60,801 nt of DNA from a virus (Duplodnaviria; Caudoviricetes), in the IMG/VR virus record IMGVR_UViG_3300009537_000009, positions 1-60,801 of that record; one strand, given 5' to 3'. Each line of letters opens with the position of its first letter. Within the stretch, counting starts at the first letter, position 1. Below are positions 13,435 to 54,919 of this stretch, in pieces. A program made the position numbers and the translations under genes. The notes below the pieces were generated by a model. It was not told the DNA's origin. It did not search any database and saw only the letters and a program-made list of their open reading frames with translations.

Positions 13435-13908
13435 ATGTATTTTATGGGGAAGGAAGTGGCTAGTAGACCAAATAAGTATAGGAGAGCCTGGAATCAGGCA
13501 ACCATCCCACTGGTAAGAGAGTTGATGGAGAATGGTGGTTCTATCGTGGAGGCATGTAGAATCATGGGAATTAGCAGGGTGACCCACTATCGGTGGATGA
13601 AATGCCCTACAAAAGCAGCATATAGCCGCGCTATGAGTGATCTTCTGGATGCTTCCGAGGCTTGGTGGATGAGGCAGGGGAGAGAGAATGTTGGAAACAG
13701 AAGTTTTAATACCCAGTTATTCAATCTCAATATGGTCAATAGGTTCAAGTGGAACTCTGCCCAATCAGAACAGACGCGGAACGTCTCCGAGAAGAGGAAG
13801 GTTACTGTCGATATTCGTAAAGCTATCGACGAGTCGGAGGAAAAAAATGAGGAGCAACACGGAGAGGTTATTCCTTTGTTGAAGAAAGTAGTTGACAATG
13901 GGGAATAG
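13435..13908 (+). CDS. Terminase small subunit (putative)
   Basis: HTH GGSIVEACRIMGISRVTHYRW, SEAWW..GR, MVNRFKW; first rightward late gene. Confidence 0.75.
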   Translation: MYFMGKEVASRPNKYRRAWNQATIPLVRELMENGGSIVEACRIMGISRVTHYRWMKCPTKAAYSRAMSDLLDASEAWWMRQGRENVGNRSFNTQLFNLNMVNRFKWNSAQSEQTRNVSEKRKVTVDIRKAIDESEEKNEEQHGEVIPLLKKVVDNGE

Positions 13909-13919
13909 TGTGGTATAAT
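13892..13919 (+). promoter_or_regulatory. Consensus sigma70 promoter of the RNA island
   Basis: TTGACA 13892-13897, 16-nt spacer, TGgTATAAT ending 13919. Confidence 0.9.
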
Positions 13920-13926
13920 GGTCCCA

Positions 13927-14047
13927 GGTTGCGTAGTTTAATGGCAAAACACTAAAAACACTATTTCTACCTATTGCTTTCCAAGCCGCTTGAGATGGTT
14001 TATCATTCGCTAAATGAGTGATGCGGGTTCGATTCCCGCCGCAACCG
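13927..14047 (+). ncRNA. tRNA-like RNA with ~70-nt expanded anticodon region; Y RNA (YrlA)-like candidate
   Basis: Acceptor GGTTGCG/CGCAACC, D arm, T arm GCGGG-TTCGATT-CCCGC, no CCA; inner helix ACTATTTC/GAGATGGT and bulged-C helix TGCTT/AAGC(C)G. Confidence 0.65.
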
Positions 14048-14056
14048 ACTTATTAC

Positions 14057-14131
14057 GGGGGATGGGCAGAGCACCCGGAGAATCCTTGCAAGATTCTAGC
14101 CTGATCAGTTTGAGTCTGATACCCTCCACCA
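14057..14131 (+). tRNA. tRNA-Ala(TGC)
   Basis: GAATC-CTTGCAA-GATTC, G3:U70, ACCA end. Confidence 0.85.
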
Positions 14132-14719: not shown

Positions 14720-14807
14720 GGGGGTGCTGGTATGCGCCTTATCAATTCTTGCTCTATTGAGCCGAAGATACAGGCTTATCTTGGTTCGACTCCAAGTACC
14801 CCCTCCT
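14720..14807 (+). tRNA. Atypical tRNA-like gene, undetermined anticodon (9-nt loop, long variable arm)
   Basis: Acceptor GGGGGTG/TACCCCC, T arm CTTGG-TTCGACT-CCAAG, TCAAT-TCTTGCTCT-ATTGA. Confidence 0.6.
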
Positions 14808-15305: not shown

Positions 15306-15383
15306 GTGTCCCTGACGGGAATTGGAATACCTGCCGGGCTTAAAACCCGGTGTTTCTCAGTTCGAATCTGAGTGCGAGTACCA
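15306..15383 (+). tRNA. tRNA-Leu(TAA), short variable arm, poorly paired acceptor (possible pseudogene)
   Basis: CCGGG-CTTAAAA-CCCGG and intact T arm; GTGTCCC vs TGCGAGT pair poorly. Confidence 0.65.
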
Positions 15384-15397
15384 TTCATTGGTGATTT

Positions 15398-15781
15398 GTG
15401 AGACATACAAAGAAGGATTTTGAGATAGACTGGTTTTCGGGTAGTGGTGCTGGCGGACAACATAGAAACAAACACCAGAACTGTTGCCGGATTACTCACA
15501 AGCAAACCGGGTTGAGGGCGCAGTCCACGAGTCACAGGGAAAGGTGGAAGAACCAGCGCGACGCATTCAACCGTTTAGCTGGGATGATAATTGCATCTGA
15601 TGATAAAAAGGAAAGAAGGGATTCCAATCATATTGTCAGAACATACAACTATGTTCGGGGCATTGCCACTGACGGGGTTATCGAAAAACCCTTGCATCCC
15701 GTAATAAACGGTGATATAATGGAGTTTATTGTTAACTCCTTATCTGGCAATAGACCAGATAGATTCACGGGCAGAATGTAA
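15398..15781 (+). CDS. Truncated class I peptide chain release factor-like protein (GGQ peptidyl-tRNA hydrolase domain)
   Basis: SGSGAGGQHRNK...CRITHKQTG...VRTYNY...NGDIMEFI, matching the C-terminal half of RF1/RF2. Confidence 0.9.
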   Translation: MRHTKKDFEIDWFSGSGAGGQHRNKHQNCCRITHKQTGLRAQSTSHRERWKNQRDAFNRLAGMIIASDDKKERRDSNHIVRTYNYVRGIATDGVIEKPLHPVINGDIMEFIVNSLSGNRPDRFTGRM

Positions 15782-15938: not shown

Positions 15939-15942
15939 ATTT

Positions 15943-16013
15943 CCCCCTGCTAATGGATAGAGGCAGGTCTTCTAAACCGGTCCTTGTGGGTTCGAATCCC
16001 TCCTGGGGGTCCA
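15943..16013 (+). tRNA. tRNA-Arg(TCT)
   Basis: GGT-CTTCTAA-ACC; compact D arm; CCA. Confidence 0.75.
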
Positions 16014-16949: not shown

Positions 16950-17154
16950 GAGGCCACCTGTACTTTGTGGTATCGATGGGGTGTATCATCCCGCTTTTTA
17001 CCGATGTAATCAATTTCGGTTTCGGGGATACGGGATTACGATGATATGTTGCGCCGTATGCAAGGAAGGCTCCCATATCGAGGATGATACAGAAAACTCA
17101 GCTCGTAGGCCGGATATCGAGGCGGCATTCTTACAAAATGCCAGTAGAGGGTGA
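16942..17154 (+). CDS. Small Cys-rich protein
   Basis: AGGAG RBS; CCAVC; 3' end overlaps tRNA-Val. Confidence 0.5.
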   Translation: MSERPPVLCGIDGVYHPAFYRCNQFRFRGYGITMICCAVCKEGSHIEDDTENSARRPDIEAAFLQNASRG

Positions 17155-17174
17155 GATTCCTTCACGAGCTACCA
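17100..17174 (+). tRNA. tRNA-Val(TAC)
   Basis: GCATT-CTTACAA-AATGC; AGCTCGT/ACGAGCT; atypical T loop TGAGATT. Confidence 0.85.
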
Positions 17175-17180
17175 AATAAT

Positions 17181-17259
17181 GGGGATGAGATGGCTCGACC
17201 GATCTTAAAACCTTACGGAAAGGATCGGGACCAGGGATCAAAACCCTGCATCTCCACCA
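17181..17259 (+). ncRNA. Minimal tmRNA-like RNA: tRNA-like domain only, no mRNA-like domain
   Basis: GGGGATG/CATCTCC with G3:U70 and A73-CCA; stemless D loop AGATGGCTCGA; 8-bp P2-like CCGATCTT/AGGATCGG; GAC then CAGGG-ATCAAAA-CCCTG. Confidence 0.8.
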
Positions 17260-17264
17260 TATTT

Positions 17265-17336
17265 TCCCTGTCTGCGGACTCAGTGTGACGGCTACGAACC
17301 GAAATCAGGTCAGTTCAACTCTGGCACAGGGAACCA
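17265..17336 (+). tRNA. tRNA-Arg(ACG)
   Basis: CGG-CTACGAA-CCG; TCCCTGT/ACAGGGA; ACCA. Confidence 0.8.
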
Positions 17337-17417: not shown

Positions 17418-17504
17418 GCTGGCTTGGCAGAGCGGACGAATGCAGGGGTTTTGTAAGCCTCAGTCGAAAGACCATCGTGGGTTCGAATCCTACAGTTAGC
17501 TCCA
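17418..17504 (+). tRNA. tRNA-Thr(TGT) with long variable arm
   Basis: GGGGT-TTTGTAA-GCCTC; GTC-GAAA-GAC arm; G1-C72, C2-G71. Confidence 0.8.
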
Positions 17505-19413: not shown

Positions 19414-19414
19414 T

Positions 19415-19491
19415 GAGCCGTCATGTTCCAAGGCTGGCGATGAAGTCTCCAAAACTCTATGTGTGGGGTTCGATTCCCTAGCGGCTCGCCA
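19415..19491 (+). tRNA. tRNA-Trp(CCA)
   Basis: AGT-CTCCAAA-ACT; G73, CCA. Confidence 0.8.
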
Positions 19492-27567: not shown

Positions 27568-29678
27568 GCCACCCTACGCCACCATTAGAAGGAGAGTCTG
27601 TTAGAGACCCAAATGCCGAGTGGTTAGATCAGGCAAGACAAGCCTATATTTCCTCTACTGACTGGATGGATATCAATCTTCGAGCCCAGTGGGAAAAGAA
27701 TATTGCCAACTTCAACAGCAAGCATCCTCCGGGTTCCAAGTATCATACGGATGTCTACAAAAAAAGGGCAAGGTTGTTTCGTCCCAAAACACGCATCTCA
27801 GTAAAGAAACTTGAAGCGGCTATGACCACTGCGTTCTTCACCAATGAAGAAGTTGTTTCGGTCGATCCCAACAATAACCAGGACAAACAACAAGTGAGTG
27901 CTGCTTCTGTGATGAAGTCGGTTATGCAGTATAGACTTACAAACACGGTACCGTGGTTTCAAATTATGGTTGGCGGTATCCAATCTGCCGCCATAAATGG
28001 TGTGGTGATAGGTCATGTATATTGGGATTATACAGAAAAGACTATCTCCACACAAGTATTTGACGGGGAGAATCCGGTGATGGATGGTGATGAACCCGTA
28101 AGCGAGACCTACTCATTTACCATGGACGATAAGCCGGTCGTAGACTTGGTGGCTCCGGAAAATTTCAGGATAGATGTAGGAGCGGATTGGGCTAACCCTG
28201 TGAACTCCTCCCCGTTTGTCATAGAACTTATCCCAATGTATGTCCAGGATATAAAAGAAAGGATGGGTCGTGACTGGATAACTCTGGATAATAAGGCTCT
28301 TATGACTGGTATAAAGCAGTCATATGATTCTGTGAGGAGTGCCAGGGAGAAAGGGAGGACTGACAGATATGAGGAGTCCAGGTCTGATATAAAAGACCAT
28401 GAAATAGTTTGGGTCCATAAAAACATTATCAGGAAGGGATCGACAGACTGGTGTTTCTATACTGTTGGTACAGAACATCTGTTGAGCAAGCCCAAGAAAC
28501 TGCAAGAAATGTATCCCCATCTTAGACACGGGGAGAGGCCCTATGTTGTTGGGTACTCCAATATAGAGGCTTTCCGTGTTTACCCGGCAGGAACTGTTGA
28601 GTTGTCTCAGGAGCTTCAAGCAGCCTCGAACGATATTTGGAATCAGAGATTCGAAAACATTCGTTTAGCTATGAACAAAAGGTATCACACGCGACGTGAT
28701 GCTAATATCGACTACACAGCACTGTTCAGGAATATATCCGGCGGCGTTGTGGAGATGGATGATCCAGACAGGGATATCAGGGTGATCGAAACACGCGACG
28801 TAACAAGCTCGGCTTATGCTGAGCAAGATAGAATCAACATGGATTTCGATGAGATTCAGGGAAACTTCTCTGTCTCAACTGTTGGGGGAGCCAGGAATCT
28901 TAATGAGACGGTTGGCGGCATGTCGATGTTAGCCAATAATACAAACATGATGACTGAGTATGTACTCAGAACATACGCGGAGACCTTCGTCGAGCCGCTC
29001 CTGAAACAGTTTATGAGGGTGGAGCAGTTCTATGAGAATGATATTACGGTTATAAACCTGAATCAACAAGCATCGGAGTTCTTCCCGAAGGGGGGGACTG
29101 ACGACGAGATGGATGAGTTGTTCAAGCACGAACTCACTCTCAAGGTGAATGTGGGCATCAATGCCACAGACCCATTCAAAAAGAATCAAATGCTGGATTC
29201 CTTCCTATCCAGGCTAGAGAGAACTCCTGGTGCTATGTTGATGGTCAACATGGAAGAAGTCATCAAGGAGTTTGCGGCAAACGCGGGATTCAAGGATGGT
29301 TCGAGGTTTATTTCCAAGGGTGATCCTAGAGTAGCTGAGCTTGAGCAAACTGTACAGCAGTTGCAACAATCCTTGCAGAACAAGGAGGTCGAGACGCAGG
29401 GCCGCATCTCTTTGCAGGAATTGAAGAATGAGGCAGCAGTAGCTATAGCGCAGATCAGGGGACAGGTTGAATTGACCAAAGAGGAGATGCGCTCAAGACT
29501 TGGTGATCTGGAAATTCAGATCAGGATGGAGGATACGGATACCAAAAGAGGCGAGCTGATGCTACAGAGGGATGCTTTGATCCAAAAGATTCTTGAGTCC
29601 GAAAGAGAGTCGTTCGCCGGTAAACCAGGAACGGTTCTAAACGATGATTATGGAGCCGTGCCGCACGCAGAGGGATAA
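27561..29678 (+). CDS. Portal protein
   Basis: 705 aa, LFRPKTR, ENFRID, ETVGGM, ETFVEP, coiled-coil C-terminus; position before scaffold and capsid genes. Confidence 0.85.
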   Translation: MLSHPTPPLEGESVRDPNAEWLDQARQAYISSTDWMDINLRAQWEKNIANFNSKHPPGSKYHTDVYKKRARLFRPKTRISVKKLEAAMTTAFFTNEEVVSVDPNNNQDKQQVSAASVMKSVMQYRLTNTVPWFQIMVGGIQSAAINGVVIGHVYWDYTEKTISTQVFDGENPVMDGDEPVSETYSFTMDDKPVVDLVAPENFRIDVGADWANPVNSSPFVIELIPMYVQDIKERMGRDWITLDNKALMTGIKQSYDSVRSAREKGRTDRYEESRSDIKDHEIVWVHKNIIRKGSTDWCFYTVGTEHLLSKPKKLQEMYPHLRHGERPYVVGYSNIEAFRVYPAGTVELSQELQAASNDIWNQRFENIRLAMNKRYHTRRDANIDYTALFRNISGGVVEMDDPDRDIRVIETRDVTSSAYAEQDRINMDFDEIQGNFSVSTVGGARNLNETVGGMSMLANNTNMMTEYVLRTYAETFVEPLLKQFMRVEQFYENDITVINLNQQASEFFPKGGTDDEMDELFKHELTLKVNVGINATDPFKKNQMLDSFLSRLERTPGAMLMVNMEEVIKEFAANAGFKDGSRFISKGDPRVAELEQTVQQLQQSLQNKEVETQGRISLQELKNEAAVAIAQIRGQVELTKEEMRSRLGDLEIQIRMEDTDTKRGELMLQRDALIQKILESERESFAGKPGTVLNDDYGAVPHAEG

Positions 29679-40333: not shown

Positions 40334-41697
40334 TGGGATTAGATAGAAATGTTCTTGCCCAAGGTCTGTTGAATATGGGCACTACACTCGGGCAGTCCGT
40401 GATCGCAAACTCTGCTCTTGAGAAAGAGATTGCGATGAAGGAAAGACTGGGTATTTTGGACGCACAGACAAGGCTGGAGCAAGAGAGACTGGTAACTTCT
40501 CGTTCCGAGAATGTTGCAAATATACAGGGTGGATGGAACTTGAAGTCTCAACAAGAGGCTAGTGCTGGAAGCTTGGCTTCAACCAAGGCTGCTGCTGCTG
40601 GAACCCTTGCTGTTCAACAGGAGATGGGTCGTACAGAGATTGAGTTGAAGGGTATGGACAACTCTGGCCTGATGGAAAGATTAAAGCAGTCCGGGCTCAA
40701 CGCGGTTAGGTTGCAGGAAGTTATCAATGGCGGAGACGTTAATCAGATCAGAGAAAACGCAAAGGCCGGTATTGATAGTATGCGTGAAGAGGTAAACCTT
40801 GCTGACAAGCGAGCGAGGCAGGAACATAAAAGGAATCTGGAGTTTACGGCAAATACCGCTGTAGCGAGTGCTGCTGCTGCCATGGATAAGACTCTTACAG
40901 ATACAGCGACCCAACTTACATCAACGATTGAAGAGATGTTGAAGGCTATTGCTGATGCCCGTAGAGGCTTGGACGAAGTAGTGGAGACCCGTGTTGTAGA
41001 CGGCAAGGAAGTAAATGTCACTTATGGTATGTTCTTATCGGAGATGATTGAAGAACGAAGGCAAGTGATGGGTCTTATGATGGGTACGGCAAGATCATCT
41101 TATGAGACCGGACTTGAGGAGTCGTTCGAGAAGAAGGAGTCTGGAGCGGAGATGACTCCAACAGAGAATAAACAGGCTAAAGCTTACGAGCCTATCTTTT
41201 TCAAGAGGCAGTCTGTAGATGCCCAACAGTGGGTTAAGGAGGGAGGAGAGCTTTCCTCCAAGAGGTTGGCCAACTGGAAGAGGGCTGGCTTGAATCCAGA
41301 GGCTATCTTCTCCGCAAGGGATAAGGTCGTCAAGAGTCAGGCTCCGGAGGAAATTGTCAATAAACCACCGGTTAATGATAAACCAAGAAACAAACCACCA
41401 ACTGTTGCTCTGCCTGATCCTGTAAAAACAGAACTGCCCGATATGGCTGGTCTTCTTTACCCAAAAGAAAAGCCAAGGCAGCCCATGCAACCATATAGTA
41501 ACGACTCCAGGGTAGGAGGCTTGCTATCACAGGATAGTGGAGCGCAACAAAGAGAAATAAAGGGAGCGATTTCAAGAATACAGGCTCTTGGTACTGGTCC
41601 GTTGGATGGGGCAAAGGAAAAACAAAGGGAGATTTTGATGGCATTTTTGAGAAACAAGGGCATGACTGACGATCAAATTGCACACATGGTGAAATAA
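40333..41697 (+). CDS. Putative internal virion protein
   Basis: Coiled-coil-rich; precedes giant gene. Confidence 0.6.
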   Translation: MGLDRNVLAQGLLNMGTTLGQSVIANSALEKEIAMKERLGILDAQTRLEQERLVTSRSENVANIQGGWNLKSQQEASAGSLASTKAAAAGTLAVQQEMGRTEIELKGMDNSGLMERLKQSGLNAVRLQEVINGGDVNQIRENAKAGIDSMREEVNLADKRARQEHKRNLEFTANTAVASAAAAMDKTLTDTATQLTSTIEEMLKAIADARRGLDEVVETRVVDGKEVNVTYGMFLSEMIEERRQVMGLMMGTARSSYETGLEESFEKKESGAEMTPTENKQAKAYEPIFFKRQSVDAQQWVKEGGELSSKRLANWKRAGLNPEAIFSARDKVVKSQAPEEIVNKPPVNDKPRNKPPTVALPDPVKTELPDMAGLLYPKEKPRQPMQPYSNDSRVGGLLSQDSGAQQREIKGAISRIQALGTGPLDGAKEKQREILMAFLRNKGMTDDQIAHMVK

Positions 41698-44600
41698 TGG
41701 GTATCAATTACCTGCTTGGAGATACACCAGACTCTGCAAAACCTACCAGAGTCTATCCTTCGTCTACTCCGACAAGTGATTCCGATTTTCTCACTGGCAT
41801 AAATCGCGGAATCAGGCAGACTGCTGCGCTCGGCTATGCCGGTTCGGCTATTGTAGGGGGTGGGCTGAGGGCTATTGGTCTTGAGTCCGCTGGAGCCTCT
41901 CTTGAGAAGTTTGGTATCGAGGGATACCATGACTACATGGAGTCTGCCCAGGATTACAAGGCATCCGTTTCATGGACGGATGTATGGAATTCCGACGGGA
42001 GCTTTCTTGATTGGGCGCAGGGGGTACTGGGGGAACAACTACCCAATATGGCTCTGATGATAGGATCGGGCGGATTGGGGGCCGCGCTCGGTAAGAAGAT
42101 TGTGAGTAAGTATGCTCTCGAAAAGATGGCATCATCCGAACTTATGGAAGCGGCAATTAAAAAGGGCGTGACATGGGGTGCCGGAACAGGCGTCTTCGCT
42201 GCATCCGAAATACTGAACACAGGGGAGATATACGGCTCCATCCTGGAGGAGACTGGACAGGCGAGACCTGGAGAGTCTTTATTGTTTGGTACCGTTGCTG
42301 CTTCTTTGGATGCGTTCACCCCGGTGAGAATCCTAAAGGGGTGGGGATACGGGGCTGATTTCACAGGATTCCTATCGAAAACAATAGCATCCCAACCGTT
42401 ATACGGAAGGGCGCTTGCGGCTGGAATAGGAGGCATGATTCGAGAGGGTACTACGGAGGGAATGCAAGCCCTGATAGAAGCGATGGCTGTTAACTTCGTA
42501 AAACAAACCCCAATGCTTGATTTCTCCGATGATCAATGGACTGAGTTCAAGGAATCTATTGCTGCCGGAGCACTGATGGGTGGTGTATCTGTCGTTTCTC
42601 CAACCCCAGGTGTTCTGCAAGCCACAGACGATGAAGCTGACCTTACCGGAGGAGAAGCCCCGCCTTCAGAAGAGTGGTCTATCGAAAGAACCAACGAAAT
42701 TCTTAACAACTCCGATCCTGAAGCCGGTACTAAAGCACTCGAAGAACTTGGACTGTTTAGGGATATAGGTCTTGGGGAGACGAATGTGATCGGCAGGGTA
42801 TCCGGGAAGGATATTATTCCAACTCCTGACTTTGATTCCATCGGAGATGTGATCCCAGCCAAAAGAACTCTGCCTAAAACAGAGCCAGCCACTAAAACTA
42901 CTCCACTTCAGTTCTCTCCGGTCTCACAAGAAGGGGCACTCGCAAAGGACTTGGTGGGACATCTTCTGTCTGCTAATGAATTAGAATCCAACACTCTACA
43001 GGAAATGAATGCGCCAGTAATGGACGCAATGAAGGCTTCCGATATCAGGCTGACTCCGAAGGGCAGGTTGGATGTTCCCCTGAAGGATAAATATCCCGCT
43101 ATTCCAGAGTATTATGATCGTATGCCGAATGAGGATCGCATACCAATCATTAATATGCTTCTAAGGGAGGAGGGGGAGAAGCTGAAGACTTCCTTCAAGA
43201 CACCCGCGCATTTGCAGGGGCTTCCCACAGAAGAGAAGATTGCAAAGACGAAGAAAGAGTTCGAGTTAGCTTTGCTCAAGAGAGTGGATAAGCGTCTAGC
43301 GGCGGCAGTTGGTAAGACAAGTCCTGTCCAAGAAACCCTATTGGATGCCATCAAAACATCCAGACCTACCACAGTACTTCGTGGCCCGGTGGTGAGGGAG
43401 TTCTCCGAGCCTATCAAGAGAACCCTGAAGAAATCACAGAAGAAAAAACTGAAGAAGTCACAAGAGACTTCTGTGGTTACTCCCACACCTTCCGTTCCGC
43501 TGACTACTATGGGAGAAGGGAGGGCCCCAGTCAATCTGATAGGACAGGAGTCAAGGCCTGGAGTTAAGGTTAAGGGTGAGGTTGTTCCGGAAATCAAGAG
43601 GACAACAACAAAGACATTCTTTAACGCAATGACAGGTAAGCTTGAGACGGTAGAAGGAAAGCAGACACCAGACCTGTCTCAACAGGATGAGTACAACAAG
43701 CTTAACACTGCCTACAAATTTGTGGACAAGCTCGACCGGGACTTGAAGTCTATTATAGGCCGTACAGGGTCGAAACGTCCGGACACTGTTAGTGTTGATA
43801 AGGACGGCAACCCTATTACCGTACCATTGCAGACAACGGATGACGACTTCAAAACCTTCACTCCCGAAGAGGATGCGGAAACAGTGAGGCAGGTTTGGAG
43901 GGATACTCTGGACATTCTAGTGTCATCCGGTCATATGACCAAGGAAGAAGTTGGTGATATGAAGCTTGACCCGACTGTGTTCACCTCTGACTTCTATGAT
44001 ATAAACAAACCTGTTGACTTCCAAGCCAGACCACCTCAAGAAAGAGTTCGTCTACAGAAAACAGGAGAGGCATTAGAGACAATGCGCCGCAACATACTGT
44101 TGGGTGTAAGGTCTGTTGGGCTTGGGTGGAGAACGGTAGAAGTCCGCCCTGGTGAATCAAAGCAGACTGTCGATTCTGTTCTGTCTAAGAATGAAAGGTT
44201 TTATGTGGATGGAAAAATCAAACAGGAGTTTGAATTAGTCACTGCTGATAACACAGACCCGTTCTCTGATGTACGGGTTGTTAGAAAGAAAGATCAGGCC
44301 GTGATGGCGATTGTACCATGGGAGGATGCGAGAATATACCGCTCCTACCACAGGACATTCGAGAACAAGAACTTCATTGTGATGAGGGAGGCTCTTGGTC
44401 GGGGTGATGAACCTTGGGTTGTGCTGGACAAAAGAAGAGATAATGCTGTCGTCGAGAAGTTATATCCATATACAGAAGAGGAGTGGCTCTTCCTTAGAAA
44501 GACGGGCATACTTGATGATGTATACAAGGGAAGGGGATTACCTAAGCATAGTAGACAACGCGAGCCTGTATTCGCTCTTCTTGAGGCATATTCTGATATA

Positions 44601-47600
44601 GAGGGAGAAAAGATTCCACCTAAAATGGGATCGAAGTCGAGGCGCGAACTACTGAAGTCAAGGCTGACCATTACTGCTAGACTCAAGAGCATGTTGAATG
44701 ATGCCGTGCAGAGAGTGATTGCCGACCCGGATTTCATCTATACGGGTGATGAAAGTATGCCAACCAAGGATAGGATTGCAATCTTTAATGATTATCTGGA
44801 TAACGCGGCAGATGAGATATATACAGAAGGAATGCTTCGTCTTGTAAATCACGAGATGGAGATTCAACCAAAGAAGTTCCTTAACCTGTTTGAAGATTTG
44901 TTCCGATTCAAGGACTCTCTCGACACTGTATTAACAGCCGCAAACAGGTCTGATGGCGGAACAAAGTGGCAGTTCATGGATAGCGTTCCATCTTCCATTG
45001 CTGGTGTTGTGGACTCTGTTACGAATGATATTATTATTGAACCATCCAACACCATTCCTCTACCTGGAGATACGGTTCTGATGTTTGTGGCTGGGGTTGA
45101 CGGCAAGTACTATCCTCAGACACAGACCTACAAGGCTCTAAGGACGGAGGAGCTTATTAGGGACGGTAAAAGAATTGGCTACACGATGTACTATGAAACA
45201 TCTGGTGGGGTTGAGAAGAAGTGGATGTTCAATCCAGACTCCCCGCATGGGTCCAAGGTGCGCGTCGTTCGCAATGCCCCTAAACCAAGGGAGAGGACAA
45301 AGGCAAGCACTCCTATCATGGATGATAACGAGTTTGTATATAAGATAGAGAATGATGAAGAGTTCTACGATGAACTGGTATTTGGTAGGACAGTTAAATT
45401 CGATACTCTTGGAAGGCCCAATAGAGGCAAGCCCGTGTTTGGTCACACCAAGAGGAGTTGGGAGGAGCGCAGAAGAGAGCTGCTTGATAAGAGAATACTG
45501 AGAAATCAGAGAGGTATCCTGATTCAGGTGAAGGCCGGGGTCACGCCAAATGAACTTGCCATTATAGACTACGAGAACCAAAGGACGGGCGCGTGGAGGG
45601 ATTCATCAAGGGTTCAGGAGTTCAGGTATAAGGCATTCGGTGTAGCGGCTGGCGATCCATATATTCTTGAGTCATTTATTGTAAGAGAATATGTGCCGAC
45701 TGGTATAAGAAAACCAAAAGAAAGTGTTGGTTTGACCCGCACCAAGAAGAAGCCCGGACTCGGTACCGCTAACGCCCACAGAAAAGCTGTTCTACAAAAA
45801 AGAAGGGACCATGAGGCAAGGCTTGACGCGCTTGATAGTACAAGTCTGACAGATAAGGATGTTAGTCTGAACGATTTGATTGTGATCAAACCGTCTGCTC
45901 TGTATAAACACGATGGTATGTACCTTATCCCTTACAGGGTTCTGGATAAAACAAAGGTTGGCGCGTTGCTTGAGAATGGCAGACTCATTCCATTCAAGGA
46001 CATTGGAAGTTCTCAGCCAATGGAAAGAGATGCCACAAATATCTTTGTTAAGAGAGATAATCAGTTTGTAACCAAGGAGAATGCGGCGTTCAGATATATC
46101 TCAGACAACATCCTTATGAATGATATGGGTGTGTATATCAGAGACCCTGTTGATGGTGAGGATCACAGAACCGTGATCATTGCAGACCGTGAAGTAACAA
46201 AGGATATCAACAGCAAGTATCTCAGCAAGTTATCGAAGATAGAGGCAGCATCACGGTCACTGGAAGAAAAGAAGAAGGAGGTTCGCAATAGCAAGGCAAG
46301 GAGAAAGAGAGCATTTCTCAACGGAGAAATCAACGAGAGTGAAAGGGCTATTGGTGATGAGATAGATAATGTCTCTATCAAGGAAGCGAAAGAGAACCTC
46401 GATAATGCTCAGATGAGGGCGAACTTCTTCCACCGGGAAGAGACTCCGTATATTTTGAGCTCGGCCATTCTTGATAAGCGAGCAACACAGGTAGGCGTAA
46501 TTACAGACTCGCAACAGATAGAGCAATGGGCCGATCCGGACCTGTACAACATGGGGCTCATTGAAATTATTGGCTCTATGGGCGACTCGGCTATGCGTAT
46601 ACACCAAAGGGCTAGATACGCAGAACAGATAGCTGTCTTGAGGGAAGATATTGCGGCCATCAAAAAAAGGAAGCCAGACGCAAGGACGGAGCTGAACTTC
46701 GAGGAGAGTGAGTCAACACCCCTATTACTTGGTTTCCAGAGAGCAGAGTTAATCGAGGGGTATGAAGAAGAGATTGCCTTCCTATCAGAAGAAATCAGAA
46801 ATCTTGAGAAATCAGAGAACTTACATAAGATTACTCCGGAAGAAATAGTGGAGTTCAAGCTGAAGAAGACAGCCGCTCAGCTTGTCGGCATGACTGGAGC
46901 AAGAATCACTCTCAATACTCTCGATGGCAACAAGGTCAAGGGAACCATCAAACGTCTAATTATAGATAGGGATGGGAAGGGGGTTGAGATAACTACTCCA
47001 GTTGATGTGAAGAGGGTTCACTTCGATAACATCGCGTCCTTCAAAGCCGCACATACATTCTCTGGTGCTGCCCCTGTTGAACTAAAATCTCCACAAGAAA
47101 GACTGGATGCTGTTTTTAAGAGAGAGGCAAGCTACCAGGAAAGCGTCAACCTGAATAGGAAGCCAAGCGAAAATGTTCAGGTTCTATTGAGGAAGCACTA
47201 CGGATACTTCGATCACGATGGGTATCGCGTTCCTGCTACCAAGCTGCATACTGCTACGGGATTGAAGTCAACCGACTTCTTCAACTCCTACGATGAGAGG
47301 CTGAAAAAGTTTCCAAAGGATAAACTTCTGCTAGTAACCATGTCCAATGGAAGCAAGTTCCTTGGCACAGTTGATAGAGTGGATAACCCCATGGATGGTG
47401 ATGAAGTGTGGATGAGCGGTATATTCACAAGAGCACCAGGAGAGTCCTTCAATCAAAGAAAGCTTAAAAGCTTGAACAAGAGGGATCGAAGGAAGGGTGC
47501 CCCTCAGATTAAGAAGTTTGACGCCAACAAGATTATCTTCATCGAGCGCAACCACGGCCTATCTTTGCCATCTACAGAAAAGCCTATTGCTGTAGCAAAA

Positions 47601-50600
47601 AGAACAGACGAGCCTAATGTGGATGCCACGCCAAGACGACAACTTGGCTTTTCTTTTTCCCCACCTACTGATCTTGCAGCAAAGGCTAAGGACTTCTATA
47701 CCAAAACCAGACCTACCAACAGAAAAGAAGAGGTTATGAACTATGAAAACGCTCTTCCTATTATCTCAGATAGTGCTGTGTACGAAGTCTACGATTTGGA
47801 TGGCAACGGTAAGGATGTACCGACAGGTACCTTCACTCCCGTCTATTTCGGTATGGATGGTCGTGTATTCAAGGTTGAGGGGAAGGAGAGACTGACCCGC
47901 AAGCAAGCTGGGTATGAAAGACGCAAGGTAATGAAGGCTGTCCCTAAAGCGCAAGAGGAGGCCAGACTTAAAAAGGAGCGAGAGGCGTCCCTGAAGGAAG
48001 CTTTCGAAAAAAAGAAAGAGGCGAAAAAAGAAAAGAGAACACTCGTAAGAAATAGAGTCGGTACTGGTGAGGTTTCATCAGAGCCTATACAGGGGTTCAA
48101 ACCGATTAAGCCTGATCGCGGAGAGATAACACTCATCGTCTCCAGAATTCTTAATAAGAAAGGGCTTGCCTCTGTTGTTCCGAGTGGTCAAATAAAGAGA
48201 GGGGTGACACAGAAGAAGGCTTTTGCGTTAGTGGAAACCGCCGTTGGTAGAAAACTGACAGAGAAGTTTTTTGTATTTGTTGGTGATCCCCAAAATCTGC
48301 CGGTACAGAATAGTCCAGAGGGGATGACCACACGGGCACTAACATACGGCAACAAGATTTATATCGCAGAGAACTCGATTGCTCCGGGTGAAATGAGGGG
48401 GATTGTTTTCCACGAGTTGGGTGTTCATATTGGTATGCGTCTTGGAATGTCCATGGAACAGATGACGAATATCCTTGACACCTTCCGCAAACTTGCTCTA
48501 CACAACAAGGATATTCAAGCATCTGTTGAGTTTGCTTCCCTCGCGGTTCCAGAGGGCGTGATGAATCGGGATGATGTAGTCATAGAGGAGGCTCTTGCAT
48601 ACTACATCCAGAACTTCCCGCCCAAGGCATTACCAAATACACTATGGAAGAAGCTGATTGCTATCGGAAAAGAAATCTTTTCTGGTATCCAGTTGAGAAG
48701 GGGGAAGGCAACGATAAATGATATCGTGAATTTGATTCAAGGGGCCACAAGGAATCTTGAGGACATGCAGCTTAGAACCGTGGATTCTCTGAACGATTGG
48801 GCCATAGAACAGCCTATGGCAAGTGCTGTGGAGACGAGTATCGGGCAATGGCGAAATCCACAGGAGATTGACGCTGGTCCGGTCATGAACTGGATCAATA
48901 AAAAAATGAAGTTCATGCACACGTATGGTGAGTTAACGGATTTCCATCAGTTTGTATCACTGCATAATGAGATTCTAGGAAACACCACTATGGTTGAGCG
49001 TTCGGCCAGATCGTTCTTCGATGGGTTAAAGAATGCACCCAAAGAAGTCAGCAGGGAAATGTTTGAGTATCTCATCGATGCCGCTGGAGACCCGCTGAGT
49101 ATTTCCGATCCACACTTCAGGGAGATTGCTGTTGATGCGAAGAAAGTGATCATGGAAATAGGGAGAAAGCTGGTAGAGAGTGGGCATATAAACAAACAGG
49201 AGTATGAGAAACTCAAGGGTGCTTATCTGCCAAGGGTATATTTGAAGTATATGTTGGAGAAGAAACCATACAAGGCAAAGGGTGGTGGGCTCGGAGTGAG
49301 CAAGCTGAGTTATACAAAGCCACGTCTGGACATACCAGAAGACGTAAGGGAGGCGTACTATAACGAAGTGAAGGATGCGTCATATCTGGTTGCCAGAGCA
49401 ATAAGTATTCCGTTAAGAGACTTGGCCATCTTCCAAGGATTGAAAGAAATGGTGACAAAGAAGGAGTGGGTTCTGCCCAACCAACTTGCTAGTTGGGATG
49501 GTCTGGAGGTGACTGTTCATTGGCTTGAGAGGGAGGCGGCGGCTATTTACGCCAGGATGAACTACATTCCTGTTGAGCAAAAGGTGGCAGCAAGGGAGTA
49601 TGCCGATAGAATGATGGCGGTTGCGGAAGAGCAAAAAGAGAAGTTTGCTCCTGATGAGAATCTTGCTAAGGACTGGGTTGAACTAAGAAAGGACGAAAGA
49701 TTGGGGGCTTTGTCTGGTCTTGTGGTTAGAAAGGAGATAGCTGACCAGTTCAACGTAGTCGAGTTTATGATCGGTGATCCCGGGTGGGCAGAGAGATGGC
49801 TTGGTGACGATGGATACGCAACCAGGGCTACCATGTTATGGAAGTGGGCGCACGTTGTTATCAATCCCGCAACCGTGATTAGAAACCATATCTCCAACAT
49901 GTCTCTTATGTACCTTTCCGGTATGTCAATGAGAAATGTTGTAAGTTACATGGCCCGTGCATTTGATGAGCTTGCCAAGGATAACTCTAACCCGATGGTA
50001 TCTAAAGTCGGAGAAGGTAGCGAGTGGGTGAGAAGATTCGAAAGAATGGGTATCCGCAAGGGAACGTGGTCTAACGTAGAACTTATGAGAATGGACGATG
50101 AGTTCCAAGCTGTTCTCGCAAAGGCAACCAAGGAAGGAGATGCCGGGTCTCTTTTCAAGATTCTTGCATTCGCCAAGGATAAGTTCCATCTCGTACACAA
50201 CAAGAGCGGAAACTTCTATCAGTTCCTTGAGGAGTGGGCGAAGCTTGCGAAGGCGATGCACGAGGTTGAGGTGAACGGCATGGCTGACGTGGATGCCGCT
50301 AACCAAGCACAGAAGTGGTTGATCGACTATTCATTTGTGGGTAAAAGTGTACGCTTCTTGAGAAGTAGTCCTATAGGTGTTCCCTTCCTTACCTTCACAA
50401 CAAAGGTGATTCCCTTGATGATGGAGGTTGCCACAAGATCACCGCAGAGATTCATACCGTTCATCGCTATGTACTATGCTATGGAGGCCGTAACGAAGTC
50501 CATGCTGGATTTGGATGACGATGAGTATGAGATGTACATGAACAGACTACCCGAGTATGTTAGAGAGGGGCACGGTATCATTCCTGTGCCGATGGAAGAT

Positions 50601-53254: not shown

Positions 53255-54796
53255 TTAACCCTTTATAAAATCAGATATCACGGCAGGGACTCCCGCATCA
53301 AACCCGACTACATCCATTGCGCCGCCATCCTCCGGATCAGCAATCGTGAATCCCGTAGAGGTCATACCAACCACCACCAACTTGGCGTGGATTCCCATGG
53401 CCGAACGGTATCTTCGTAGCGCCTCCATCGGCTTCATTTTCCCCGCCCATGTTTCATTGTCAGTGTAGACAATGAAGGCATCGTAAGACTTCTTCTCTAG
53501 AAGAGCAACTTGCATCGGAAGAGAACAGTCGGTTGCACCGAACGGTAGTCCATGCACCGCCTTCATAGCTGCATTCAGATTCCACCCACGAGCAATAGGC
53601 AGCTTTGTGATGCTATTACAGAACCCATACACATCCGCACAGTCCTCTACATTCACCGTAACCAGGCTCATGGCGGTAGCAGCCATTCTGACAGACATGG
53701 AACCATTGAACGGAAGCCCCATTGACCCCGATACATCGAGACCAATCATGATACGCTTCCCTGTTGGTTCAACATTCACAAATGCATCATGAAAGGCGTT
53801 ATTGAGCGCGCCCACAATAAGAGCAGAGGAGTTACCCTCCTTCTTATACTCGCTCATTGCAATCAAGACAGACATCGGATGCACCATTGAACCACGGATG
53901 CCCCTCAGCTTCTGCACTACTAGCTCTTCGCACTCACGATTGAAGACACCGTAGTTGCTCATGTTGCGCAGATTACGGATCATTGCAGTCATCGGCATGT
54001 TGGGTAGCATGGCCCTCCACACACCCGCATCCTTCAACACCTCGGTTGACAAATACTCTCTTGGGGTGTGATGGTTTTGCACGAGAAAGTCCACCACCTT
54101 CTCGGGATTGGTCTCGTTGCGGATAGATTCGTATGTGTGAACAGCCTGTGGTGCCTGTGGAGTCACCTTGCCGCCAACCGCCCAACCAAACAACGCATTA
54201 TGTTTTTCGCTGACCGGCTTAACATGGGCGAGGCGCAGTACATCTCTATGCGTCCATCCCTCACGGTTCCGGTACTTGGTCATGCCGAAAGCAAGAGCAT
54301 GTATGTCACGCGAGTACCACTCCCCCACAACCTTACGAATAAGACTGCCCCACTTTCCACCCAACTGCTTGCGGTACTGTAGGAACATGAATAAGTGAGT
54401 AGGAATACGGCAGATATCACCCAGCCTGGAAAGAGCCAAACTCCTAACAGCTACCCTTTTATCCACTGAGGCAACAGCCAGCGCGAATATTTGTGGGTCT
54501 ACCTTGTGGGCCAGTCCGTTTACGTTGACATCCACTATAATGTCGATTGCTCTCTCTGCGTCTGACCTGAGAGCAGTCAAGATGGCCTCATAATTGCCAG
54601 CCACCATCTCCCGCTTCGAGACGTAGAATGTCGCCCCGTCCGCGCCGAGAATAAGAAACCTTCTCAGGCGATCAAATTCATTCAGCCCATAAACAAACCC
54701 ACCCGCGTTGTTCATGACTTCTCGTGGGTCGGAGCGCACCGTTTGTGGCGTCACCCGATGACGATCAATTGCGTAATTCTGCATTTTGCTACTCAT
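53255..54796 (-). CDS. rsr: Ro60 (TROVE + vWA) RNA-binding protein
   Basis: NNAGGF, RLRRFLILG, KYRNREGWTHRDVLRLAH, MP.TA.IRNL, MIDAS DVSGSM, YTDNETW, GFTIADP.D..MDVVGFD. Confidence 0.95.
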   Translation of the reverse strand: MSSKMQNYAIDRHRVTPQTVRSDPREVMNNAGGFVYGLNEFDRLRRFLILGADGATFYVSKREMVAGNYEAILTALRSDAERAIDIIVDVNVNGLAHKVDPQIFALAVASVDKRVAVRSLALSRLGDICRIPTHLFMFLQYRKQLGGKWGSLIRKVVGEWYSRDIHALAFGMTKYRNREGWTHRDVLRLAHVKPVSEKHNALFGWAVGGKVTPQAPQAVHTYESIRNETNPEKVVDFLVQNHHTPREYLSTEVLKDAGVWRAMLPNMPMTAMIRNLRNMSNYGVFNRECEELVVQKLRGIRGSMVHPMSVLIAMSEYKKEGNSSALIVGALNNAFHDAFVNVEPTGKRIMIGLDVSGSMGLPFNGSMSVRMAATAMSLVTVNVEDCADVYGFCNSITKLPIARGWNLNAAMKAVHGLPFGATDCSLPMQVALLEKKSYDAFIVYTDNETWAGKMKPMEALRRYRSAMGIHAKLVVVGMTSTGFTIADPEDGGAMDVVGFDAGVPAVISDFIKG

Positions 54797-54919
54797 GTGA
54801 ATTAAAGGGTTGTAATGTCAAGGTGCGTGAATGGAGTGTACTCAAACACAAGGTTGATAATCCACTCACATCGGACATTACGAAACGTATTATACATCGA
54901 ATCCATGGCGGTGTCAAGC

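What the first reader, a model, noticed from the sequence alone, without database searches (positions are those of the whole stretch)
17181..17259. 79-nt tmRNA reduced to its tRNA-like domain
Seen: GGGGATG/CATCTCC acceptor with G3:U70 and A73-CCA; stemless D loop ending GGCTCGAC (compare the tmRNA GGATTCGAC motif); 8-bp helix CCGATCTT/AGGATCGG in place of an anticodon arm; GAC linker; 5-bp T stem. Only 14 nt (AAAACCTTACGGAA) replace the roughly 250-nt pseudoknot and tag-coding region. Known: these are AlaRS and SmpB determinants, and tag-less tmRNAs are known from jakobid mitochondria. Inference: it could accept nascent chains without tagging them, or titrate SmpB to block host trans-translation.
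Basis: partly seen in the sequence, partly recalled or inferred. Interest (0 to 1): 0.9.

Follow-up and report, generated by a model that had tools for sequence, protein, structure and literature searches.

The report
Phage mini-tmRNA: tRNA-like domain only
This 79-base phage gene encodes only the alanine-accepting, tRNA-like end of the bacterial ribosome-rescue RNA (tmRNA), a type known from one mycobacteriophage that turns out to be a large phage family and probably interferes with, or cheaply replaces, the host's rescue and tagging of stalled ribosomes.

Summary
The Rfam tmRNA model matches them end to end, with its 302 interior positions replaced by 8 nt. The score is 44.4 bits and 35.9 bits, just under the cut-off of 47. 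The tRNA model, the mt-tmRNA model and ARAGORN give nothing there.

The gene sits in a roughly 27-tRNA array of a complete 60.8-kb phage, 6 nt after tRNA-Val. That family includes the published "TLD only" tmRNA of mycobacteriophage DS6A. A model built without the window scores the window at 63.9 bits and DS6A at 69.4 bits.

G3:U70 is kept in 32 of 32 hits of a search that did not impose it, which argues that alanine charging matters. I found no tag-coding partner, SmpB gene or integrase in the phage.

The most likely function is competition with host tmRNA for SmpB and stalled ribosomes, which would block ssrA tagging. Tag-free rescue is the main rival.

The phage also carries a GGQ-only release-factor gene, but that gene is not generally linked to the family. 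This scan has found the same kind of RNA before on other DNA. It is a new member of a known kind.

The parts
17181..17259 (+). Mini-tmRNA gene (tRNA-like domain only), including the encoded CCA
   Evidence: RF00023 matches end to end at 44.4 bits and 35.9 bits. Family models R1 and R2 give 75.2 and 63.9 bits. Fold.
17181..17187 (+). Acceptor stem, 5' strand GGGGATG (G3 of the G3:U70 pair)
   Evidence: Positions 5-7 covary across the family. G3:U70 was found in 32 of 32 hits when not imposed.
17188..17198 (+). D-loop analogue without a stem, AGATGGCTCGA (part of the GGNUCGAC tmRNA signature)
   Evidence: Aligned to RF00023 positions 8-20. GGCTCGAC is the form in 5 of 96 distinct members.
17199..17206 (+). 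P2a-like helix, 5' strand CCGATCTT
   Evidence: 7 of 8 pairs of this helix show changes on both sides across the family.
17207..17220 (+). 14-nt cap AAAACCTTACGGAA: an A-rich internal loop plus a 2-bp CC/GG mini-hairpin, in place of the pseudoknots and tag frame
   Evidence: Relatives usually have a 3-5 bp hairpin here, often CCGCAUGCGG.
17221..17228 (+). P2a-like helix, 3' strand AGGATCGG
17229..17248 (+). GAC linker and T arm (CAGGG / ATCAAAA / CCCTG)
   Evidence: The A54 T loop is rare, 2 of 96.
17249..17256 (+). Acceptor stem 3' strand CATCTCC (U70) and discriminator A73
17100..17174 (+). tRNA-Val(UAC) 6 nt upstream. The order Val, mini-tmRNA, Arg(ACG) is shared with loci L009 and L010.
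17265..17336 (+). Divergent tRNA-Arg(ACG)-like gene directly downstream. It is not a tag-coding piece.
   Evidence: ARAGORN calls it only at -ps80. It aligns to the tRNA-Arg(ACG) of L009 and L010. Its fold is not better than shuffles, z = -0.21.
13892..13919 (+). Perfect sigma-70 consensus promoter (TTGACA, 16 nt, TATAAT with TG) in front of the tRNA array. It is a possible promoter of the transcript carrying the mini-tmRNA.
   Evidence: a consensus match only. A terminator-like site at 16977-16993 lies between it and the gene.
15398..15781 (+). 127-aa GGQ-only release-factor-domain protein within the same tRNA array. It is a possible but unproven functional partner.
   Evidence: PF00472 at 59.9 bits against a cut-off of 35. 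GGQ motif seen. Closest solved relatives are RF1 residues about 220-335. No general linkage to the family.

Best explanation
The gene encodes a TLD-only (tag-less) tmRNA of the mycobacteriophage DS6A type. I infer the following mechanism. The RNA is transcribed with the phage's tRNA array and trimmed by the host's tRNA-processing enzymes. The CCA end is already encoded. Host AlaRS then charges it with alanine through G3:U70 and A73. Host SmpB binds it through the stemless D-loop analogue and the P2a-like helix. The phage encodes no SmpB of its own. Because the RNA has no resume codon, tag frame or pseudoknots, it cannot add a degradation tag. It therefore competes with host tmRNA for SmpB and for stalled ribosomes, so proteins from ribosomes stalled during infection escape ssrA tagging and proteolysis. 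Shown here: identity, structure, family membership, conservation of the alanine identity pair, and absence of a tag region, an SmpB gene and an integrase. Inferred: processing, charging, SmpB binding and the effect on trans-translation.
For: Identity:
- RF00023 matches end to end with only the interior deleted.
- The window scores 63.9 bits and DS6A 69.4 bits with model R2, which was built from 76 other phage sequences.
- No tRNA model or ARAGORN call covers the locus.

Structure:
- In the first set, 95.3% of pair cells are paired against 65.1% in shuffles, with 223 against 72 double-change cells.
- This was replicated on 63 distinct sequences not used for the model: 96.9% against 66.3%, and 420 against 134.
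- Slid-partner controls give 38-52% paired.

Charging matters:
- A search that left the whole 5' strand and position 70 free returned 32 stretches. All 32 have 5'-GGGG and U70, since all are among the 43.
- Acceptor pairs 5-7 vary freely by comparison.

Dependence on the host:
- SmpB (PF01668) is absent from the window and from 5 of 5 large family-bearing phage records.
- Those 5 records have no full-length tmRNA either.

Phage trait:
- The strict pattern gave 16 stretches in one genome each of 185,579 species, of which 7 are family members.

Precedent:
- Hudson et al. 2014 state that a molecule like the DS6A TLD, chargeable or not, strongly inhibits tmRNA, perhaps by titrating SmpB (PMC4131195 passages).
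- The 2025 database paper says the same (PMC11915505 passages).
Against: - No experiment or expression data exists for this RNA.
- If titrating SmpB were all that mattered, G3:U70 would not need to be invariant. The cited experiment reportedly saw inhibition whether or not the RNA could be charged, so the strict conservation fits a role that needs alanine, such as peptidyl transfer or tag-free rescue, at least as well.
- The window copy is a divergent member. It falls below Rfam's cut-off of 47 bits (44.4 and 35.9 bits). It has A54 in the T loop, seen in 2 of 96. Its inner hairpin is only 2 bp.
- The host is unknown, so the fit to the host's SmpB and AlaRS cannot be checked.
- A terminator-like site lies between the strongest promoter match and the gene.
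- I know Mao et al. 2009 only through two citing papers, because it is not held in the library.
Confidence: 0.55

Rival explanations
1. Productive tag-free rescue. Ala-charged mini-tmRNA with host SmpB and EF-Tu enters ribosomes stalled on broken mRNAs and takes over the nascent chain. The chain plus one Ala is then released by a codon-independent hydrolase. Candidates are host ArfB, Pth after drop-off, or in this phage the GGQ-only protein at 15398-15781. Ribosomes would be recycled for phage translation without proteolysis tags.
For: G3:U70 and 5'-GGGG are invariant where not imposed, 32 of 32, so charging is under selection. The gene lies among tRNA genes, which are a translation-supply module. 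The window encodes a 127-aa release-factor GGQ domain lacking the codon-reading domains. Such genes also occur in 2 of 10 other family-bearing records. CDS-less organellar tmRNAs are thought to help with incomplete mRNAs despite having no tag (PMC11915505 passage).
Against: There is no stop codon or open region that could reach the decoding centre. A stop triplet at the helix-loop junction appears in only 20 of 33 members, at varying offset and often with its U paired; it forms the first three loop bases in only 4 of 33. There is no general linkage with GGQ proteins: 0 family hits in the 80 best viral loci around GGQ homologues (plus or minus 10 kb, 1.32 Mb), and 8 of 10 other records lack one. 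The only cited experimental result is inhibition, not rescue.
Confidence: 0.27
2. A tRNA-Ala-derived or tRNA-like RNA used off the ribosome, for example as an alanine donor to a transferase, a decoy for tRNA-targeting defence nucleases, or a processing or priming signal. It would have no role for SmpB.
For: The RNA lies in a tRNA array, carries the alanine identity pair and has no anticodon to be cut. The phage invests in RNA-damage biology, with Ro60 plus a Y-like RNA.
Against: The conserved D-loop signature and the GGAC junction are those of tmRNA, not tRNA-Ala. RF00023 scores 44.4 bits while RF00005 finds nothing. The family models score true tRNA-Ala genes at only 24-29 bits, against 38-91 bits for family members. 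The phage has its own likely tRNA-Ala(UGC) at 14057-14131.
Confidence: 0.08
3. A non-functional remnant: either an attP-type fragment of a host ssrA gene or a decayed full-length phage tmRNA.
For: Phages often carry 3' pieces of ssrA as integration sites (established knowledge; also mentioned in PMC9004378 passages). Pseudomonas phage PA_L9 shows such a 3'-half-only match, at 25.3 bits with unpaired acceptor and P2 positions marked in the alignment.
Against: Both halves are present and pair perfectly. The same trimmed architecture recurs in 96 distinct sequences with compensatory changes in all four helices. No integrase was found in the window. Spacing to the flanking tRNAs is tRNA-like, at 6 nt.
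Confidence: 0.04
4. One piece of a split tmRNA whose tag-coding partner lies elsewhere.
For: RF04321 (permuted tmRNA) matches the 3' half at 26.8-31.2 bits. ARAGORN produced long 'permuted tmRNA' calls over two relatives, L039 and L062.
Against: The gene order is standard and the acceptor stem closes within the 79 nt. The RF04321 match is only the shared T arm and acceptor strand, and is below the cut-off of 47. No other tmRNA-like match exists in the complete 60.8-kb genome. The downstream 78 nt is a divergent tRNA-Arg(ACG).
Confidence: 0.03

Closest known systems
'TLD only' / CDS-less tmRNA of Mycobacterium phage DS6A (JN698994.1 28478-28557; tmRNA Website tmID 11587; Mao et al. 2009 as cited in PMC4131195 and PMC11915505)
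   Same: Same architecture and same family. It has a 7-bp GGGG acceptor with G3:U70, a stemless D-loop analogue ending UCGAC, a P2a-like helix, an A-rich internal loop with a small hairpin, a T arm, and no tag frame. DS6A scores 63.9 bits (R1) and 69.4 bits (R2) with models that never saw it. The window scores 63.9 bits with R2. The element is unannotated in the DS6A record.
   Different: The window copy has A54 in the T loop, GGCUCGAC instead of DS6A's D-loop form, a 2-bp CC/GG mini-hairpin instead of CCGCACGCGG, GGAC rather than GCAC at the junction, and an encoded CCA. It sits inside a roughly 27-tRNA array, whereas the DS6A copy lies between two protein genes. The phages are otherwise unrelated in the searches made.
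Standard bacterial tmRNA (SsrA; Rfam RF00023)
   Same: Model positions 1-31 and 334-374 align: acceptor stem, D-loop analogue, P2a, GGAC junction, T arm and ACCA end.
   Different: 302 model positions are replaced by 8 nt, removing the pseudoknots, resume codon and tag frame. The score is below the family cut-off, at 44.4 and 35.9 bits against 47. It cannot tag.
CDS-less organellar tmRNAs (jakobid and oomycete mitochondria, Rfam RF02544; two ~65-bp Mallomonadaceae plastid genes, PMC11915505)
   Same: They show the same reduction to a tRNA-like domain without a tag frame, and still depend on SmpB (passages).
   Different: There is no sequence-model relationship: RF02544 gives no match in the window at E<=10. 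They arose independently in organelles, and most mitochondrial forms are permuted (the last point is recalled, not checked).
Full-length phage tmRNAs (e.g. mycobacteriophage Bxz1 group, Bacillus phage G, Melnitz two-piece ssrA)
   Same: They are phage-borne ssrA homologues, often near tRNA genes (PMC4131195 Table 2; PMC9004378).
   Different: Those keep a tag frame and are found by ARAGORN. This class has none and is missed by ARAGORN: 0 of 32 relatives were called as a standard tmRNA, and one received a spurious 669-nt permuted call.

Membership tests
tmRNA (Rfam RF00023), tRNA-like domain | 7-bp acceptor stem beginning GGGG with G3:U70, discriminator A73 and a CCA end | tested here: met
   G3:U70 is kept in 32 of 32 family hits when not imposed.
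tmRNA (Rfam RF00023), tRNA-like domain | D-loop analogue without a D stem, ending GGNUCGAC, followed directly by helix P2a in place of an anticodon arm, then GGAC and a 5-bp T stem with a 7-nt loop | tested here: met
   Alignment to model positions 1-31 and 334-374. The T loop has A54, which is atypical (2 of 96).
tmRNA (Rfam RF00023), whole family | Score at or above the curated gathering cut-off (47 bits) | tested here: not met
   44.4 bits and 35.9 bits. Five relatives do pass, at 48.9-61.5 bits.
tmRNA (Rfam RF00023), whole family | mRNA-like domain: pseudoknots, resume codon and a tag reading frame ending in a stop codon | tested here: not met
   Only 14 nt lie between the P2 strands. 302 model positions are deleted. 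No other tmRNA piece exists in the genome.
tmRNA (functional definition) | Alanylation by AlaRS, binding of SmpB and EF-Tu, and entry into stalled ribosomes | not testable with these tools
   Needs biochemistry. The sequence determinants are present. No SmpB gene is in the phage.
Phage TLD-only tmRNA (DS6A type) | Full-length match to a covariance model of the family built without the candidate | tested here: met
   R2, built from 76 other sequences, gives the window 63.9 bits (E 4.5e-13) and DS6A 69.4 bits. The next best place in the window scores 17.8 bits.
Phage TLD-only tmRNA (DS6A type) | Four covarying helices: P1, P2a-like, inner hairpin and T stem | tested here: met
   In the window the inner hairpin is reduced to 2 bp, so that element is marginal here.
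Phage TLD-only tmRNA (DS6A type) | Inhibits host tmRNA when expressed (property reported for the DS6A-like molecule) | not testable with these tools
   Known only from citing passages. The original paper is not held.
tRNA (Rfam RF00005) | Cloverleaf with D stem and a 5-bp anticodon stem plus 7-nt loop, and a score of at least 29 bits | tested here: not met
   No RF00005 match at the locus at E<=10, while 16 other places match. ARAGORN makes no call at default, -ps95 or -ps80 settings.
Mitochondrial tmRNA (Rfam RF02544) | Match to the family model | tested here: not met
   0 matches at E<=10.
Permuted two-piece tmRNA (Rfam RF04321) | Acceptor piece upstream of the coding piece, with 5' and 3' acceptor strands on separate RNAs, and a score of at least 47 bits | tested here: not met
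   Only the 3' half matches, at 26.8 and 31.2 bits. The 5' strand lies upstream in the normal order.

The most novel reading that the evidence does not exclude
The phage brings a two-part, tag-free ribosome-rescue kit. The alanine-charged mini-tmRNA, using host SmpB, takes the nascent chain from ribosomes stalled on damaged mRNA. The phage's own codon-blind GGQ-only release factor (15398-15781, in the same tRNA array) then hydrolyses the peptidyl-Ala-mini-tmRNA. Ribosomes would be recycled for phage translation without marking proteins for degradation. This would be a minimal natural trans-translation system made of a 79-nt RNA and a 127-aa protein.
Probability: 0.1. Interest if true: 0.8.

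Novelty: new member of a known kind. Interest (0 to 1): 0.5.

Why it matters
Trans-translation is the main ribosome-rescue and quality-control path of bacteria. How phages deal with it is barely studied. A TLD-only tmRNA was on record for a single phage, DS6A. In the library searched I found no paper that treats it as a family.

This window adds a clear member in a tRNA-rich phage. With the relatives gathered here, it shows four things. The design is recurrent in phages. It is missed by ARAGORN and sits near or below Rfam's cut-off. It keeps the alanine identity pair strictly. It never comes with a phage SmpB in the records checked.

That makes a simple question testable: do phages switch off host tagging, or do they run a cheaper, tag-free rescue? 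It also offers natural minimal substrates for AlaRS, SmpB and ribosome studies. For annotation, such genes are currently left blank, for example in DS6A and in Streptomyces phage pSt2308.

Tried and rejected
**Ordinary or odd tRNA-Ala.** Rejected. RF00005 and ARAGORN give nothing at the locus. A separate likely tRNA-Ala(UGC) lies at 14057-14131.

**Jakobid-type mt-tmRNA.** Rejected. RF02544 gives no match.

**Split or permuted tmRNA with a downstream coding piece.** Rejected. The 78 nt downstream are a divergent tRNA-Arg(ACG), and there is no other tmRNA-like hit.

**Stop codon in the cap acting as a zero-length tag.** A stop triplet lies within offsets -1 to +2 of the helix end in 20 of 33 members. 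It forms the first three loop bases in only 4 of 33, and its U is often paired. I read the A-rich loop as structural. The idea is not excluded but is unsupported.

**Conserved partnership with the GGQ-only release-factor protein.** Tested in both directions and not supported as a rule.
- 1 hit in the held flanks of the 61 loci held at the time (L009-L068 and L052).
- 2 of 10 whole records carry such a gene.
- 0 family hits in the 80 best of 399 viral loci around GGQ homologues.

**Phage-encoded SmpB.** None in the window or in 5 of 5 large records.

**Integrase or att remnant.** No PF00589 match in the window.

**Close relatives among isolated phages by BLAST.** The window's 79 nt gave no match. 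The 3.5-kb array region gave only tRNA-sized matches. The portal protein finds only about 33%-identical Vibrio and Escherichia phages, so the host stays unknown.

**Expression.** The look-up of sequencing runs listed no run and no RNA holder. This is not evidence either way.

**Papers.** The AcrIIIA1 paper (PMC11662646) concerns host t(m)RNA fragments and does not bear on this. Mao et al. 2009 could not be read. Supplements were not consulted. Table S1 of PMC9004378, which lists phage tmRNAs, might contain related calls.

**Score discrepancy.** RF00023 gives 44.4 bits in the genome search and 35.9 bits in cmscan. I report both and cannot explain the difference beyond differing search settings.
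Full report
**What is there**

The window is a whole IMG/VR virus record of 60,801 bases, rated 100% complete. Between about 13.9 and 19.5 kb it carries a dense tRNA array on the + strand. ARAGORN finds 21 genes at default settings. Five more appear at relaxed settings: tRNA-Ala(UGC) at 14057-14131 and tRNA-Trp at 19415-19491 at -ps95, and Leu(UAA) at 15308-15393, Arg(UCU) at 15942-16013 and Arg(ACG) at 17265-17336 at -ps80.

The finding lies 6 nt after tRNA-Val(UAC) (17100-17174) and 5 nt before the divergent tRNA-Arg(ACG). The minimum-free-energy fold is exactly the proposed structure, at -26.6 kcal/mol with z = -2.32. No ORF of 70 aa or more overlaps 17181-17259.

**Identity**

- Rfam's tmRNA model RF00023 matches 17181-17259 from model position 1 to 374 at 44.4 bits. 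E is 5e-18 for this genome, and the next best hit scores 17 bits.
- A cmscan of 17176-17264 gives 35.9 bits (E 1.3e-13). It shows the alignment: model positions 1-31 and 334-374 are matched, and the 302 positions between them are replaced by 8 nt.
- Both scores are below the curated cut-off of 47, so by Rfam's rule this copy would not be annotated.
- The tRNA model RF00005 matches 16 other places but not this one at E<=10.
- The mitochondrial tmRNA model RF02544 matches nothing.
- The permuted-tmRNA model RF04321 matches only the shared 3' half, at 26.8 and 31.2 bits.
- ARAGORN never calls the locus.

**A family, and the published precedent**

A pattern written from the window's landmarks (GGGG, GGNTCGAC, 14-44 nt, GGAC, T loop, CTCCA) found 43 stretches in IMG/VR, of which 32 are distinct. 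In all 43 the three acceptor pairs not fixed by the pattern are complementary.

A covariance model, R1, was built from 10 of these sequences including the window. It hits all 33 sources searched at 48.7-91 bits.

On that alignment 95.3% of pair cells are standard pairs, against 65.1% after shuffling (0 of 500 shuffles reach it). There are 223 double-change cells against 72. With partners slid by 1-3 columns, pairing is 38-52%. That alignment was fitted to the model, so I repeated the test.

Of the 80 rows listed, 76 were new loci, and 76 of 76 carry an R1 hit at 38.1-81.9 bits. On their 63 distinct sequences, none used for R1, pairing is 96.9% against 66.3%, and double-change cells number 420 against 134.

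A second model, R2, was built from those 76 hits only. It scores the window at 63.9 bits (E 4.5e-13), and the next best place in the window scores 17.8 bits. It scores the intergenic element of mycobacteriophage DS6A (JN698994.1 28478-28557, unannotated in the record) at 69.4 bits. R1 gave DS6A 63.9 bits.

DS6A is the published case. Hudson, Lau and Williams 2014 list it as "TLD only". They add that a similar molecule, chargeable or not, strongly inhibits tmRNA, perhaps by titrating SmpB, citing Mao et al. 2009 (PMC4131195, passages read). The 2025 tmRNA database paper repeats this. It also mentions CDS-less mitochondrial and two plastid forms (PMC11915505, passages read). I could not read Mao et al. 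2009 itself.

Four full-text searches turned up no paper describing a phage family of such RNAs. That is a statement about those searches only.

**Family features**

Counts are over 96 distinct sequences out of 109 held in alignments A3 and A6.

| Feature | Value |
|---|---|
| Length | 63-92 nt, median 79 |
| Encoded CCA | 33 of 96 (the window is one) |
| Junction GGAC | 85 of 96 |
| Junction GCAC | 9 of 96 |
| T loop beginning UUC | 94 of 96 |
| T loop with A54 | 2 of 96 (the window and L038) |

Between the P2 strands most members have an A-rich 5' loop, a small hairpin that is often CCGCAUGCGG, and 2-3 nt on the 3' side. The window has the shortest form of the hairpin, 2 bp.

The genes often sit by tRNAs. 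Of the 32 distinct loci, 11 hold tRNA genes in the DNA fetched, and in 7 the nearest tRNA is within 50 nt; the other 21 show none in the flanks held.

The order Val, mini-tmRNA, Arg(ACG) is shared by the window, L009 and L010. A cultured example is Streptomyces phage pSt2308 (PV588686.1, 33356-33433). It scores 79.4 bits with R2, is unannotated, and lies 85 nt after tRNA-Val in a tRNA array near an RNA ligase gene.

In bacterial and archaeal genomes the strict pattern is rare. It gave 16 stretches in one genome each of 185,579 species. Only 7 of them are family members by R1 (66.5-89.3 bits), and 3 of those 7 lie in arrays of 10-21 tRNAs, which looks like phage DNA.

R1 scores true tRNA-Ala genes at about 24-29 bits.

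**Evidence bearing on mechanism**

1. *Charging appears to be selected.* My first patterns imposed GGGG and CTCCA, so G3:U70 in those sets proves nothing. A pattern that starts at GGGTTCGAC and leaves the entire 5' strand and position 70 free returned 32 stretches. All 32 are loci already found with GGGG and CTCCA. So U70 and 5'-GGGG occur in 32 of 32, while acceptor pairs 5-7, P2 and the T stem vary. C69, C71, C72 and A73 were still imposed.

2. *The RNA must use host SmpB.* PF01668 is absent from the window and from 5 of 5 large family-bearing records. In those 5 records the only RF00023 hits over the cut-off are the roughly 80-nt genes themselves, at 48.9-61.5 bits, so there is no full-length phage tmRNA beside them.

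3. *There is no tag-coding partner.* No other tmRNA-like match exists in the window. The adjacent 78 nt are a tRNA-Arg(ACG) relative.

4. *It is not an att remnant.* No tyrosine integrase was found, both halves are present, and the helices covary. For contrast, Pseudomonas phage PA_L9 carries only a 3'-half match, and cmsearch marks non-standard pairs in the acceptor and P2 helices; it scores 25.3 bits.

5. *A possible local partner exists.* Within the same array, ORF 15398-15781 encodes a 127-aa protein that is a bare release-factor GGQ domain. PF00472 scores 59.9 bits against a cut-off of 35, and the sequence reads SGSGAGGQHRN. The best NCBIfam stretches are RF1 residues 213-337. PrfH scores E 9e-12 and ArfB E 7e-5, all far below those models' cut-offs. 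PDB relatives are RF1 and RF2 domain 3. PHROGs 3122 and 20323 are annotated "RF-1 domain peptide chain release factor".

A codon-blind hydrolase next to a tag-less tmRNA suggests a tag-free rescue pair, so I tested linkage. GGQ genes occur in 2 of 10 other family-bearing records, as open frames of 123 and 136 aa, and in 1 of the held flanks. However, around the 80 best of 399 viral GGQ homologues (plus or minus 10 kb, 1.32 Mb) there is no family hit at E<=0.001. The pairing is therefore not a conserved module. It remains an attractive hypothesis for this particular phage only.

**Reading**

Identity as a DS6A-type TLD-only tmRNA is, in my judgement, about 0.9 likely.

For function I favour interference with host trans-translation, through competition for SmpB and for stalled ribosomes. 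This is the only activity reported for such a molecule, and nothing in the RNA can direct tagging or termination.

The strict retention of the alanine identity pair is not needed for a pure SmpB sponge. That keeps the tag-free acceptor or rescue model alive at roughly a quarter of the probability. The two models differ in one measurable step: whether the peptidyl-Ala-RNA is released productively.

**Comparison and novelty**

The RNA works like, and is homologous to, the tRNA-like domain of tmRNA. It is not a canonical tmRNA, because it has no mRNA-like domain and scores below Rfam's cut-off. It is not a tRNA, a mitochondrial tmRNA or a permuted tmRNA.

It is a new, somewhat divergent member of a kind known from DS6A. 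Earlier follow-ups in this scan reached the same conclusion on other genomes. I re-derived the family, the DS6A link and the ARAGORN blind spot independently here.

**Limits**

- There are no expression data; no sequencing run was listed.
- The host is unknown. The portal's nearest isolated relatives are about 33%-identical Vibrio and Escherichia phages.
- Family counts are lower bounds from motif patterns, not from a full model scan.
- E-values of R1 and R2 are rough because calibration was shortened.
- Supplements were not available.

Noticed in passing
window 53255-54796 (-) and 54803-54884 (-): The phage encodes a Ro60/Rsr orthologue: TROVE at 98.4 bits plus Ro60 vWA at 200.9 bits, and phrog_850. 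Directly upstream on the same strand is a Y-RNA-like gene. RF00019 matches it end to end at 24.7 bits, below the cut-off of 38. A nematode sbRNA model gives 27.8 bits. The fold is -23.2 kcal/mol with z = -3.69, 0 of 200 shuffles as good. It has a GUCCGA...UUGAC closing stem and a TTGACA / TATAAT-like promoter just upstream. Phage Ro/Y pairs are known; I recall this and did not check it.
   Followed up: partly
window 15398-15781 (+): A 127-aa GGQ-only release-factor-domain protein lies inside the tRNA array, with no codon-recognition domains. The pattern scan matched 469 stretches in viral contigs, of which 399 encode a relative. Its role in phages is unclear. It is not generally linked to the mini-tmRNA.
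   Followed up: yes
window 17237-17243: The T loop of the mini-tmRNA reads AUCAAAA, with A at position 54 where 94 of 96 distinct family members have U. The only other case is L038. This may affect the T54-A58 pair and EF-Tu or elbow contacts. It is unexplained.
   Followed up: partly
window 13927-14047 (+): Rfam tRNA match at 48 bits spanning 121 nt, so a tRNA-like gene with an insertion of about 50 nt. ARAGORN does not call it.
   Followed up: no
window 14720-14806 and 17418-17504 (+): Two 87-nt tRNA calls carry anticodons not expected for long-arm tRNAs: Asn(AUU) and Thr(UGU). They may be miscalled class II tRNAs or tRNAs with odd variable arms.
   Followed up: no
window 19414-19491 (+): A tRNA directly abuts tRNA-Met. 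ARAGORN calls it Trp(CCA) at -ps95, and it scores 30.9 bits with the tRNA-Sec model, below the cut-off of 47.
   Followed up: no
window 41697-51185 (+): A single ORF of 3162 aa takes up about 16% of the genome, downstream of the structural genes. It was not annotated here.
   Followed up: no
G002:C1:18620-18697; G005:C1:25782-25857 and 27974-28049: Further sub-threshold RF00023 hits (32.3, 28 and 28 bits, model 1-374) occur in two family-bearing phage records, besides their mini-tmRNAs. They may be tRNA-Ala genes or second tmRNA-like RNAs.
   Followed up: no
L264 (PV588686.1 33356-33433) and L052 (JN698994.1 28478-28557): Two isolated phages, Streptomyces phage pSt2308 and Mycobacterium phage DS6A, carry family members that their GenBank records leave unannotated.
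   Followed up: yes
L039 5481-6149 and L062 3973-4703: ARAGORN reports long 'permuted tmRNA' genes of 669 and 731 nt with implausible tags. Each overlaps a mini-tmRNA. These are probably artefacts seeded by the TLD.
   Followed up: no
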